Assembly: GCA_030038355.1 (NCBI GenBank)
Contig: JASHPB010000071.1
Span: 6,550-70,549, forward strand
Direction: 5' to 3'
DNA length: 64,000 nt
Source: Candidatus Binataceae bacterium
GTDB taxonomy: Bacteria; Desulfobacterota; Binatia; Binatales; Binataceae
This document shows positions 9,472 to 11,784 of this stretch, in pieces (the first letter of the stretch is position 1; each line of letters begins with the position of its first letter). The translations under genes and the position numbers were made by a program. The notes under the pieces are model-generated. The model was given only the letters and a program-made list of their open reading frames with translations, was not told where the DNA came from and did no database searches.

Positions 9472-10710
9472 ATGGCAAGTGCAGAGCGGCCGACTCCGGC
9501 GGCGCCGTTCGACCCAATGATGGGACGGCTCGAACTGATCGAGCCCGGCATCGCAATGTTTCACGGCTTCGCTAACGTCGCGTTCGCGTACGGCCGCGGC
9601 GAGATGCTCGCGGTGGACACCAGCTCGCGCACGATGGGCGCGATGGCGGTCAAAGCTATCCGCGAAATAACCGACGAGCCGTTCGCGTTTCTGATCTACA
9701 CTCATGGCCACGGCGATCACGCGTTTGGCACCGACGCGTTCCTCGAGGACGCCTTGTCGCACGGCTTCCGCCGTCCGAAAATCTGGGCGCATGAGGACGT
9801 GAGCGGCCGCTTTCATCGCTACGCGATGACACGCGGTTGGCAGTCGCACATCAACCAGCTTCAGTTCGGCGCACGTGCGCCAGTCGACGGAATCTTCGAC
9901 GAAAAATCGTTCCGCTATGCCGACCTCGCGTACCGCGACTACCAGACGCTCGAGCTAGTGGGCGAAGCCGTCGAGCTGCATCACGCGCGCGGCGAAACCG
10001 ACGATGCCACCTGGGTCTGGATGCCAACGCGGCGGACCGCGATGGTCGGTGACCTGATCGTTTCGTCGATGCCGAACACCGGCAACCCGAATAAGGTGCA
10101 ACGCTTCACGCTCGGATGGGCTGAGGCCCTGGAAGCGATCGCGCGCAAGAAGCCGCGCTACGTGCTTCCCGGGCATGGCCCCGCATATCGCGGCGAGGAC
10201 GCGTGCCAGGAGCTTCTTCTCGAGACGGCGCGCGCGCTCAGGTTCATCCACGATGAAGTGGTGCGACGCCTCAACGCCGGCCAGTGGCCGGTCGAAATCG
10301 TCGAGGCGAATATCGAACTGCCCGCCGATCTTGCGGCGCAGCCGTTTCTTGCACCGATCTACGGATGCGTTCCATTCGTCGTGCGCGATGTCATCCGCTA
10401 CTACGCGGGATGGTGGTCAGGGGAGCCGTCCGCGATGTTTCCCGCAACGCGTCGCGATCGCGCGGCGGACGTCATCGCCTTGTGCGGGCGCGATGCAGTC
10501 CTCGCGCGGGCGCGAGCGCTCCGCGATGAAGGCGAATTGCAGCGTGCGCTCGCGCTGGCTGAGACGGAGCTGAATGCCGACGTTAGCGATCGCGAGGCGA
10601 TGGATCTCAACGCCGACATTTTGGAGAAGCTCGCGGCGCGCGAGCGCTCGTTTATCGCGCGCAACTTCTTCTCGGGCGCAGCGCGCGCACTTCGTGAAGG
10701 TCTGAAGTGA
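9472..10710 (+). CDS. MBL-fold hydrolase, alkyl/aryl sulfatase-like with dimerization domain
   Basis: THGHGDH, GETDD, PNTGNP, LPGHG and YYAGWW motifs. Confidence 0.88.
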   Translation: MASAERPTPAAPFDPMMGRLELIEPGIAMFHGFANVAFAYGRGEMLAVDTSSRTMGAMAVKAIREITDEPFAFLIYTHGHGDHAFGTDAFLEDALSHGFRRPKIWAHEDVSGRFHRYAMTRGWQSHINQLQFGARAPVDGIFDEKSFRYADLAYRDYQTLELVGEAVELHHARGETDDATWVWMPTRRTAMVGDLIVSSMPNTGNPNKVQRFTLGWAEALEAIARKKPRYVLPGHGPAYRGEDACQELLLETARALRFIHDEVVRRLNAGQWPVEIVEANIELPADLAAQPFLAPIYGCVPFVVRDVIRYYAGWWSGEPSAMFPATRRDRAADVIALCGRDAVLARARALRDEGELQRALALAETELNADVSDREAMDLNADILEKLAARERSFIARNFFSGAARALREGLK

Positions 10711-10830
10711 TCGCCCGATATCGCGACTCTCTTCGAGTCATTCCGAGCCAAAGGCGCCAGCAAGGCGAGGAGGAATGATCGCGGGGCGATATTCTGCGGC
10801 GCGCGGGGCTTTTGCGGCTCCTATTCAATT

Positions 10831-11156
10831 GCGGTGTCGACCGCAGCGGCCTTGTAGCAGCTTCACTCACCAGTGCCTCAGATTCCTCGCAGCATAGGCA
10901 GTCCCTTCGACGACCGCTTTGGGGAGTCTCGCCCACGGTGTTCACGCCCTTACTTGTTGATGCCGGAACCGCGTCTTGCGACCCGTCCCACGATCCCGTT
11001 CGAGTCACCGCTCAACACCGGGCGAGGGCCTCTTAGATTCGAGCACTTCGCCTCATGGCCGCTGACGCGCACCTCTCCCCGAACTGGTCGCTCAACCTCT
11101 ATCCCGCTAGATACTGCTGAGTGAAGGTCAGACAAGGCCGCTGCCGCCAACACTGC
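10831..11156 (-). ncRNA. Candidate large structured ncRNA or non-autonomous mobile element
   Basis: At least six nested inverted-repeat pairs spanning the whole intergenic element; mismatches mostly resolve as G-U on the minus strand; GUC-GCAA-GAC tetraloop; no credible ORF. Confidence 0.55.
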
Positions 11157-11205
11157 GGACGTAGTGCGCAACGAAATGCTCACGTGCCACCCAGAGCAGT
11201 ATCAA

Positions 11206-11784
11206 TTATGGTTTCGCTGGACGTTGTGATGGATCCTTTTTCTTGCGCGGCGAGCGCTTGCGCGGCATCGCCGGCTTGAGCGCACCGTCAACGACGCCCC
11301 CCTGCAACGCGACGACGGTGATGGGAGGCCGCGGCTTTCGAATCGACGCAACGACGTCGGCCAGCTCGATCGCGGGATTGCTGCGCGCACCGGCACTATC
11401 GATTTCGATCTCGCGCCCGATATCACTCAGCGAAATCAAGCCCGCAAGCTTGCCCGCCTCGTCAACCACGGGCAGCCGATGGACTTTCGCCTCGCGCATC
11501 AGCTTGAGCGCGAATGAAACCGAGTCATCCGGCCCGCACGTGACCACCTTCTTGCTCATTACTGGTTCGATCGCGATATCGAACAGCGGCCGACCCTGCG
11601 TGTAAGTTGCCATCGCGAGGTCGCGATCGGTGACAACGCCTACCACGCGCGTTTCTTCATCAACGATCGGAACGCACCCGCAGTCGTTCTCCCACATGAT
11701 CTGCGCCGCGTCATTGATCGAACCCGCAATCGGGCACGACTTGACCGCAGCCGTCATTACTTCTGAAACCTTGCTCTGATTCAC
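11206..11784 (-). CDS. CBS domain pair protein with basic C-terminal tail
   Basis: VMT...MWENDCGCVPIVD...GVVTDRD and HRLPVVD...GLISLSD; GAGGAGG RBS with GTG start. Confidence 0.9.
   Translation of the reverse strand: MNQSKVSEVMTAAVKSCPIAGSINDAAQIMWENDCGCVPIVDEETRVVGVVTDRDLAMATYTQGRPLFDIAIEPVMSKKVVTCGPDDSVSFALKLMREAKVHRLPVVDEAGKLAGLISLSDIGREIEIDSAGARSNPAIELADVVASIRKPRPPITVVALQGGVVDGALKPAMPRKRSPRKKKDPSQRPAKP

What the first reader, a model, noticed from the sequence alone, without database searches (positions are those of the whole stretch)
10831..11156. Unexplained ~326-nt nested-helix element: candidate novel large ncRNA
Seen: between the converging sulfatase and CBS genes the sequence pairs end to end. 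The pairs are 10831-41/11146-56, 10843-55/11132-44 (perfect 13 bp), 10861-74/11113-26 (13 of 14), 10889-97/11099-107, 10911-26/11075-90 and 10937-48/11064-73. They enclose a branched core with a GCC-AUGA-GGC hairpin, a UGUUGA/UCAACA stem, a GUC-GCAA-GAC GNRA hairpin and a twice-occurring GUG(A)CUCGAA motif. Most mismatches become G-U pairs on the minus strand, which fits selection on RNA structure better than a DNA palindrome. The hallmarks of tmRNA, RNase P and SRP are missing, and it is much longer than a typical 6S RNA. Inference: a structured RNA class I cannot assign.
Basis: partly seen in the sequence, partly recalled or inferred. Interest (0 to 1): 0.85.

Follow-up and report, generated by a model that had tools for sequence, protein, structure and literature searches.

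The report
Orphan IS110 bridge-RNA remnant between repeats
The folded 326-base element is the leftover front end of an IS110-type jumping gene, carrying its guide ("bridge") RNA gene but no transposase, wedged between two inverted copies of the short genomic repeat that this jumping gene targets; it belongs to a known kind, not a new RNA class.

Summary
The helices are real: 44-nt inverted arms and fold z about -3.5 on both strands. That signal comes from the outer arms. The core alone folds no better than shuffles (z -0.13 on the minus strand).

On the minus strand, window 11134-10896 is 83% identical to three metagenome sequences. In those, it lies directly upstream of an IS110-family DEDD transposase (PF01548 + PF02371), where IS110 bridge RNAs are encoded.

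The guide logic holds:
- A variable 9-mer in loop 1 equals each copy's own left flank plus a CT core (8/9, 8/9, 9/9, 9/9; cross-pairs 3-5/9).
- A second 9-mer is the reverse complement of CT plus the right half of a ~146-nt dispersed repeat (34 hits in this genome).
- A conserved loop-2 segment matches the element's right end.
- The circle junction of the intact relative forms TTGACC-17-TATGAT.

The window copy has only ATG CTG left of the transposase, a ruined -10 hexamer and a mismatch at the guide's core position. It keeps 52 of the relative's 69 predicted pairs. The left arm is the target repeat carrying a 25-nt stub of a second, inverted insertion. The sister species has a 118-nt spacer without the element.

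Verdict: a decaying member of a known kind; low-to-moderate interest.

The parts
9472..10710 (+). Flanking gene: alkyl-sulfatase-type metallo-beta-lactamase protein (context only)
   Evidence: Pfam Alkyl_sulf_dimr 2e-28, Lactamase_B 7.8e-9
10737..10852 (-). Left copy of the ~146-nt dispersed repeat, distal part (repeat-profile positions about 26-144). It ends at the CT core 10851-10852. This is the left-target side of a second, plus-oriented insertion.
   Evidence: nhmmer with the genome-derived repeat profile: 68.5 bits, E 2.7e-22 in the local search. C33:364-389 is 100% identical to window 10828-10853.
10853..10877 (+). 25-nt stub of an IS110 left-end terminus in the opposite orientation, the remnant of a second insertion at the same CT site of the repeat
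   Evidence: Identity to left-end termini after the core: 18/25 (window IS-1), 20/25 (L056), 21/25 (L057, L059). Removing 10854-10879 raises the repeat-profile score from 68.5 to 83.3 bits and extends the match to profile position 15. Control deletions give 68.5, 49.4 and 31.9 bits.
10878..10893 (-). Continuation of the left repeat copy (profile positions about 25 down to 15), the right-target half next to the stub. It is joined directly to the start codon region of the lost transposase.
   Evidence: Plus strand 10876-10892 reads CCTCAGATTCCTCGCAG, against CTTAGATTCCTCGCGC in the reverse complement of the repeat consensus. Profile extension.
10890..10895 (-). All that is left of the transposase gene: ATG CTG. 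Homology to the relatives' ORF stops here.
   Evidence: Alignment with L056, L057, L059 and C145. In L056 the ORF that begins at this ATG is a 418-aa IS110 transposase.
10896..11134 (-). Left non-coding end (239 nt) of an IS110-family element carrying the bridge-RNA gene. The shared CT core is at 11136-11135.
   Evidence: 83% identity over window 10890-11139 to L056, L057 and L059. The flanks of all copies diverge exactly at the core. The predicted fold has an outer stem and two stem-loops with internal loops.
11056..11064 (-). Left-target-guide-like 9-mer (CAGCGGCCA), 5' side of loop 1
   Evidence: Equals the copy's own left flank plus core at 8/9. The same position in L056, L057 and L059 gives 8/9, 9/9 and 9/9 against their own flanks. 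Cross-comparisons between different insertions give 3-5/9.
11032..11040 (-). Right-target-guide-like 9-mer (GAATCTAAG), 3' side of loop 1
   Evidence: Its reverse complement CTTAGATTC is found exactly in the reverse complement of the repeat consensus, directly after CAGCGGC.
10991..10999 (-). Left-donor-guide-like segment (ACGGGATCG), 5' side of loop 2
   Evidence: L056 and L057 have ACGGTATCG here. The right ends of L056, C159 and C282 all finish ACGGTATCT.
10953..10961 (-). Right-donor-guide-like segment (ATCAACAAG), 3' side of loop 2
   Evidence: Its reverse complement CTTGTTGAT resembles core plus left-end start (CTTGTATGAT in L056, CTTGTCTGAC in the window) if one base is skipped. This is a partial match only.
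11137..11200 (+). Right, partial copy of the dispersed repeat (from profile position about 27), inverted relative to the left copy. It is the left-target flank of the main insertion.
   Evidence: nhmmer 11133-11267, profile positions 25-140, 13.4 bits, E 2.5e-5 in the local search. The distal part overlaps the CBS gene and is doubtful.
11206..11784 (-). Flanking gene: CBS-pair protein (context only)
   Evidence: Pfam CBS 3.4e-30

Best explanation
The core (window 11134 to 10896, minus strand) is the left non-coding end of an IS110-family insertion sequence. [quoted passage not shown] This copy landed at a CT core inside a ~146-nt dispersed repeat that its first loop is programmed for (left half CAGCGGC, core CT, right half TAGATTC). 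It later lost the transposase and the right end by deletion. A neighbouring, inverted copy of the same repeat had been hit at the same site by a second copy of the element, of which only 25 nt remain. The two inverted 'repeat half plus left-end terminus' junctions form the 44-nt arms that close the apparent end-to-end helix. The inner helices are what remains of the bridge RNA fold. Shown here: homology to transposase-linked left ends, guide-to-flank correspondence, the junction promoter in the intact relative, the repeat family, and absence from the sister species' spacer. Inferred: the order of the deletions, and that the window copy is now an inactive fossil.
For: (1) Three metagenome loci carry the same sequence at 83% identity. 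Each is followed by a transposase start. In L056 the complete 418-aa ORF has PF01548 (1.7e-32) and PF02371 (2.3e-25). A second, diverged copy in the same genome (C145, 74% identity) also runs into the transposase N-terminus at the contig end.
(2) The loop-1 9-mer equals each copy's own left flank plus CT: 8/9, 8/9, 9/9, 9/9, against 3-5/9 between different insertions.
(3) The window's second loop-1 9-mer is the exact reverse complement of CT plus the next 7 nt of the repeat consensus. The predicted 16-nt site has 0 exact matches. It has 4 one-mismatch sites, all 4 inside repeat copies, and 4 two-mismatch sites, 3 of them inside repeats. The reversed control gives 0, 1 and 4.
(4) The loop-2 segment ACGGTATC matches the right ends of L056, C159 and C282.
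(5) L056's right end plus left end forms TTGACC, a 17-nt spacer and TATGAT. L056 also has a long left end (242 nt), a short right end (about 17 nt) and a CT core.
(6) These features match the published description of IS110-group bridge RNAs (PMC11208160, passages read).
(7) The same-genus genome G001 has the orthologous sulfatase (91% identity) and CBS (88% identity) genes separated by about 118 nt, without the element or the repeat.
(8) Contigs of three sequencing runs from three studies bridge the transposase-less junction. One of them may be the sample the window was assembled from.
Against: The window copy itself has no transposase, so its assignment rests on homology. Only four distinct sequences were available, and covariation of the RNA helices is not significant: 4 pairs with changes on both sides, a value reached by 74 of 500 shuffles. 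RNAalifold's covariation term is unfavourable (+6.12). The core alone folds no better than shuffles in the window and only modestly better in L056 (z -1.96). L056's observed right flank matches its predicted right target at only 6/9 including the core. The right-donor guide match needs a skipped base. The right repeat copy is weak (13.4 bits). No expression data exist. The two-insertion, two-deletion history is a reconstruction.
Confidence: 0.86

Rival explanations
1. It is a still-mobile, non-autonomous mini-IS110 (MITE-like): left end plus bridge RNA plus a minimal right end, moved in trans by a recombinase encoded elsewhere.
For: It is compact and has no ORF. It retains all four guide-like segments. 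Related IS110 genes exist in the genome.
Against: This composite occurs only once in the genome. No right-end terminus of the ...ACGGTATCT type follows the left end. What follows is repeat sequence and an inverted left-end stub. The -10 position reads TCTGAC instead of TATGAT, and the left-target guide mismatches the core. The detectable relatives in the assembly are all defective: C282 has an in-frame TAG, and C159 and C145 are fragments.
Confidence: 0.06
2. The long inverted arms have been co-opted as a REP/BIME-like hairpin between the convergent genes, acting as a transcript-end stabiliser or a barrier to read-through, whatever the origin of the core.
For: The element sits between converging genes. 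The arms are 44 nt at 80% complementarity. The whole element is stable on either strand. No separate intrinsic terminator is predicted in 10650-11300.
Against: There is no U-tract. The sister species manages with a 118-nt spacer that lacks the element. Nothing points to selection on the arms. This would be a side effect, not an alternative origin.
Confidence: 0.06
3. It is a free-standing, novel class of large structured host ncRNA.
For: No Rfam match at any threshold. There are many nested helices and conserved blocks between the two genomic copies.
Against: Every homolog with enough flank is joined to an IS110 transposase. It is absent from the orthologous site in G001. It was not found in 60 relatives by DNA search or in 164 same-family genomes by pattern. 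The core has no fold-energy signal, and the closing helix is explained by the repeats.
Confidence: 0.02

Closest known systems
IS110-group bridge RNA (IS621 paradigm; Durrant et al. 2024, PMC11208160, passages read)
   Same: It is encoded in a long left end upstream of a PF01548 + PF02371 recombinase and on the same strand. It has two stem-loops with internal loops, the first variable and the second conserved. The 5' side of loop 1 has the sense of the left target plus core, and the 3' side is complementary to core plus right target. It uses a CT core. A sigma-70 promoter is assembled across the right-end/left-end junction. Its target is a dispersed repeat.
   Different: The window copy is an orphan with no recombinase gene, no right end, a damaged -10 hexamer and a core mismatch in the guide. 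An extra long-range stem encloses both loops in the predicted fold. The sequence is unrelated to anything in Rfam 15 or to plasmid records. The nearest plasmid-borne transposase is only 51% identical.
REP/BIME-targeting IS110 elements (IS621, ISPpu9, ISPpu10; PMC12288879, passages read)
   Same: Site-specific insertion at one dinucleotide inside a short repeated extragenic element that also occurs as inverted pairs.
   Different: The target here is a ~146-nt repeat with ATTCCGAGCG...CGCTCGGGAT ends rather than a classical ~35-nt REP. Two inverted insertions are recorded at one locus, and both are degraded.
MITEs
   Same: Short, without an ORF, with inverted ends, derived from an IS.
   Different: The inverted ends are not element termini but target repeat plus left-end terminus. 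There is no target-site duplication and only a single copy.

Membership tests
IS110-family bridge RNA | Encoded in the non-coding left end, directly upstream of and co-oriented with a DEDD (PF01548) + PF02371 recombinase | tested here: met
   Met for homolog L056 and for the N-terminal codons in L057, L059 and C145. In the window copy only ATG CTG remains, so this feature is met by homology, not in situ.
IS110-family bridge RNA | 5' side of the first internal loop has the sequence of the left target plus core, and it varies with the insertion site | tested here: met
   8/9, 8/9, 9/9 and 9/9 against own flanks. 3-5/9 between different insertions.
IS110-family bridge RNA | 3' side of the first loop is complementary to core plus right target | tested here: met
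   Window: exact 9/9 to the repeat consensus and 8/9 to the right flank of the stub. L056: only 6/9 to its observed right flank.
IS110-family bridge RNA | Second loop matches the donor: the right-end terminus (left donor) and the left-end start (right donor) | tested here: inconclusive
   Left donor: ACGGTATC in the RNA against ACGGTATCT at three right ends. Right donor: a match only if one base is skipped. Discontiguous pairing of this guide is described for IS621.
IS110-family bridge RNA | Two stem-loops with large internal loops, supported by covariation | tested here: inconclusive
   The predicted architecture fits. With 4 distinct sequences, covariation is not above shuffles: 74 of 500 shuffles reach the observed value.
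IS110-family bridge RNA | Promoter reconstituted at the right-end/left-end circle junction | tested here: met
   L056: TTGACC, 17 nt, TATGAT. The window's -10 position reads TCTGAC, and no promoter-like site is found in 10650-11300.
IS110-family bridge RNA | RNA is expressed and binds its recombinase | not testable with these tools
   No RNA run holds the stretch.
IS110 group insertion sequence | Long left end, short right end, no long terminal inverted repeats, shared core dinucleotide at both junctions | tested here: met
   L056: left end 242 nt, right end about 17 nt, CT at both ends. The right-end boundary was fixed by comparison with C159.
MITE | Terminal inverted repeats that are the element's own ends, a target-site duplication, and many copies | tested here: not met
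   The arms are target repeat plus left-end terminus. The composite occurs once in the genome.
Any Rfam 15 family | Covariance-model match | tested here: not met
   0 matches at gathering score on the window and 0 at E<=10 on 10650-11300. The left end of L056 also has no match.

The most novel reading that the evidence does not exclude
The locus may be more than debris. One reading is that the transposase-less left end still yields a bridge RNA that acts in trans with related recombinases in the cell or community. Another is that the 25-nt left-end stub, bounded by an intact CT core and the correct right-target flank, is a natural footprint of recombinase-mediated partial (half-site) deletion. 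In that case the locus would record how IS110 elements are removed from their repeat targets.
Probability: 0.1. Interest if true: 0.5.

Novelty: new member of a known kind. Interest (0 to 1): 0.27.

Why it matters
It removes a false lead: a conspicuous "large novel ncRNA" is explained by a system described in 2024 that Rfam does not recognise. Similar unexplained nested-helix elements next to dispersed repeats should therefore be checked against IS110 ends. It also gives a clean natural example of bridge-RNA logic read from sequence alone. The guide halves, the CT core, the junction promoter and the genome's own repeat family as target are all visible. Finally, it shows what a decaying bridge-RNA locus looks like, and it yields an uncharacterised bridge-RNA/recombinase pair (L056) with a readable target code.

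Tried and rejected
- **Rfam.** No family matches the window, the region, or the intact relative's left end.
- **Protein-coding reading.** Four internal ORFs of 74-118 aa have no Pfam hit. The two genomic copies differ by indels of 1, 5 and 13 nt.
- **Homolog searches with no true match.**
  - DNA search of 60 relatives found only 25-27-nt repeat hits in G001.
  - A two-block pattern found nothing in 164 other same-family genomes.
  - The genome-contig scan gave 31 loci, all limited to the pattern blocks and therefore chance.
  - Viral scans gave 1 chance locus and then 0.
  - The left-end DNA has no match in plasmid records.
  - No transposase at E<=1e-90 was found in 300 sampled genomes of the phylum, other than the own-genome copy C282.
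- **Metagenome scan.** Of 8 loci, 3 are real homologs and 5 are chance.
- **C145 copy.** Its fold shows no signal: z +0.97 and -0.50.
- **Helix covariation.** Inconclusive.
- **Expression.** No RNA holder is listed among the sequencing runs.
- **Literature on orphan or non-autonomous bridge-RNA loci.** One search returned 10 papers with at least 3 of the 4 terms, of which 9 were listed. I saw only the listing and abstract starts, plus passages of PMC12288879, so I cannot say whether such loci are already in print.
- **Supplements.** They were closed. The bridge-RNA models and target tables of PMC11208160, and the database of bioRxiv 2026.10.21.760802, may already contain this subfamily.

Full report
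**Observation.**
All six helices are at the stated coordinates, with 8/11, 13/13, 13/14, 7/9, 13/16 and 5/10 Watson-Crick pairs.
- The repeat finder reports a single 44-nt inverted repeat, 10831-10874 / 11113-11156, 80% complementary.
- The stretch 10825-11162 folds better than dinucleotide shuffles on both strands: z -3.58 and -3.51, with 0 of 100 shuffles as good.
- Rfam 15 gives nothing, either at gathering score on the whole window or at E<=10 on 10650-11300.
- The flanks are an alkyl-sulfatase-type metallo-beta-lactamase gene (+) and a CBS-pair gene (-).
- Without the outer arms the fold signal disappears. For 10893-11100, z is -0.13 on the minus strand and -1.31 on the plus strand.
- The G-U argument for the minus strand is 5 positions against 4, so it decides nothing by itself.

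**Two repeated things overlap here.**
- A search of the window's own genome (5.05 Mb, 349 contigs, 60.8% GC) found a second copy of the core on contig C145. It is 74% identical to window 10896-11029 and lies 62 nt from the contig end.
- The same search found a 26-nt exact match of the 5' arm on contig C33.
- The C33 match belongs to a separate dispersed repeat of about 146 nt, with ends ATTCCGAGCG...CGCTCGGGAT. A profile built iteratively from the genome gives 34 nhmmer hits.
- Window 10737-10861 (minus strand) is one copy of this repeat (68.5 bits). Window 11133-11267 (plus strand) is a weak second, inverted copy that starts at the same profile position (13.4 bits, E 2.5e-5 in the local search).
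- The two core copies differ by indels of 1, 5 and 13 nt, and the internal ORFs have no Pfam match. The core is therefore not coding.

**What the core is.**
- Relatives did not help at first. There was no DNA match in 60 relatives and no pattern match in 164 other genomes of the family. A scan of the species-representative genome collection gave 31 hits, all limited to the pattern blocks.
- A metagenome scan with a second pattern returned 8 loci. Three of them (L056, L057, L059) align to window 10890-11139 at 83% identity.
- In all three, and in C145, the sequence beyond window position 10890 continues on the window's minus strand into an ORF.
- In L056 that ORF is complete at 418 aa. It carries DEDD_Tnp_IS110 (PF01548, 1.7e-32) and Transposase_20 (PF02371, 2.3e-25).
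- The core is thus the left non-coding end of an IS110-family insertion sequence, read on the minus strand.
- The flanks of the four insertions diverge exactly at a shared CCTTGT. This fixes the left boundary at a CT core (window 11136-11135).
- The right boundary follows from comparing L056 with a truncated own-genome copy, C159:3558-4121 (86.7% identical). Homology ends at ...ACGGTATCT, about 17 nt after the stop codon.
- The result is a long left end (242 nt in L056) and a short right end, as described for the IS110 group (PMC11208160, passages read).

**Test of the bridge-RNA logic.** According to the passages read in PMC11208160:
- The RNA has a 5' stem-loop and two stem-loops with internal loops. 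The first loop is variable and the second is conserved.
[quoted passage not shown] - A CT core is included in every pairing.
- A sigma-70 promoter is formed across the right-end/left-end junction of the excised circle.

All of this can be read here:
- The 9-mer after the conserved GGTGCGCGT equals each copy's own left flank plus CT: 8/9 (window), 8/9 (L056), 9/9 (L057) and 9/9 (L059). Comparisons between different insertions give 3-5/9.
- In the window, the 9-mer on the 3' side of the same loop, GAATCTAAG, is the exact reverse complement of CTTAGATTC. In the reverse complement of the repeat consensus, that sequence directly follows CAGCGGC.
- The 16-nt site predicted from the two guide halves has no exact copy in the genome. 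It has 4 one-mismatch sites, all 4 inside repeat copies, and 4 two-mismatch sites, 3 of them inside repeats. A reversed control gives 0, 1 and 4.
- In the conserved second loop, ACGGTATC matches the right ends of L056, C159 and C282. ATCAACAAG matches the left-end start only with one base skipped, so I count that one as inconclusive.
- Joining L056's right end to its left end gives TTGACC, a 17-nt spacer and TATGAT.
- MFE and RNAalifold predictions show an outer stem enclosing two stem-loops with internal loops.
- With only four distinct sequences, helix covariation is not above shuffles: 4 pairs with double changes, reached by 74 of 500 shuffles.

**Why the window copy looks like one long hairpin.**
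- On the minus strand the left end is preceded by the right-hand repeat copy. The element sits at the predicted CT site of that copy.
- After the bridge-RNA region only ATG CTG of the transposase remains (10895-10890). It is joined directly to positions about 15-25 of the left-hand repeat copy.
- That left-hand copy is itself interrupted at the same CT site by 25 nt (10853-10877, plus strand). These are 18/25, 20/25 and 21/25 identical to the left-end termini of the window element, L056 and L057.
- Removing 10854-10879 raises the repeat-profile score from 68.5 to 83.3 bits. Three control deletions do not raise it.
- So two inverted copies of the target repeat were each hit at the canonical site, in opposite orientations.
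- What is left is one transposase-less left end and one 25-nt stub.
- The two inverted junctions, each 17 nt of repeat plus 27 nt of left-end terminus, are the 44-nt arms.
- The order of events, and the need for at least two deletions, is inference.

**State of the copy.**
- Relative to the transposase-bearing relatives, the window copy has TCTGAC where the -10 hexamer TATGAT stands.
- It has an A instead of T at the core position of the left-target guide.
- It has a weakened apical hairpin in loop 1 and a 4-nt deletion.
- It keeps 52 of the 69 pairs of L056's predicted fold, with 3 gapped. L057 keeps 63 of 69 and C145 keeps 43 of 69, with 9 gapped.
- No promoter-like or terminator-like site is predicted in 10650-11300.
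- The other members of this IS clade in the assembly are also defective. C282 (54% identity) has an in-frame TAG. C159 is a 3' fragment. C145 lacks the first part of the left end and the loop-1 hairpin, and has a 1-nt deletion in the first codons. The assembly is 93% complete, and repeats are often lost from such assemblies, so an intact copy cannot be excluded.

**Insertion, not a host gene.**
- In the same-genus genome G001, the orthologous sulfatase (91% identity) and CBS (88% identity) genes converge across about 118 nt that contains neither the repeat nor the element. In G002 the two genes are not adjacent.
- The transposase-less arrangement is not an assembly artefact of this genome alone. 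Contigs from runs X1, X2 and X4 (three studies, peat and soil) cross position 10890 with 0-1 differences. One of these runs may be the source sample.
- Run X3 also holds a contig of a relative that continues into the transposase.
- No RNA run holds the stretch.

**Comparison and verdict.**
- It works like, and by homology is, an IS110-group bridge RNA locus.
- The defining features tested in the relatives are met. These are linkage to the recombinase, target guides that track the flanks, the CT core, the junction promoter and the end lengths.
- The donor guides are half met. Covariation and protein binding remain open.
- It is not a MITE in the strict sense. It is not a new RNA class.
- Its sequence subfamily appears uncatalogued in the collections I could search (Rfam, plasmids, GTDB representatives). 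The published bridge-RNA model sets sit in supplements and databases I could not open.
- Interest is low to moderate. It is a neat, fully readable natural example of bridge-RNA targeting of a genome's own repeat family, and of how such loci decay.

Noticed in passing
window 10737-10861 (-), 11133-11267 (+); own genome e.g. C33:340-484, C65:1319-1473, C131:27114-27253: An uncharacterised dispersed repeat of about 146 nt, with inverted ends ATTCCGAGCG...CGCTCGGGAT. It has 34 nhmmer hits in this genome. Short matches in the same-genus genome G001 suggest it is shared within the genus. Its own nature (REP/BIME-like or MITE) was not worked out.
   Followed up: partly
L056:4720-4887 (-): The metagenomic relative's IS110 element sits next to a full-length match to Rfam RF02001, a group II intron D1-D4 element (76.2 bits, E 5e-14). 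The first ~16 model positions are overlaid by the IS left end, so that copy appears to have inserted into a group II intron.
   Followed up: partly
own genome C282:1783-2949 (L063), C159:3558-4121, C145:1-250 (L002), C8:253-690: Other IS110-family remains in the same genome. C282 is full length (54% identity) with an in-frame TAG and the same right-end terminus and TTGACA box. C159 is a 3' fragment with the right end. C145 is a 5'-truncated left end plus the transposase start at a contig edge. C8 is a further DEDD domain at a contig edge.
   Followed up: partly
window 10828: In run X1 a 60-nt contig follows the window up to 10828 and then continues with unrelated sequence. This may be another locus carrying the repeat, or a strain variant (table 7).
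   Followed up: no
window 10890-11029: Run X3 holds a 746-nt contig of a relative (13 differences, 1 gap) that continues into a transposase N-terminus. Its word depth is 9.68, against about 3-4 for the locus itself. Transposase-bearing relatives therefore co-occur in that community.
   Followed up: no
window 10798: The contig from run X2 has a 2-nt insertion (GC) behind 10798, inside the left repeat copy (table 4).
   Followed up: no
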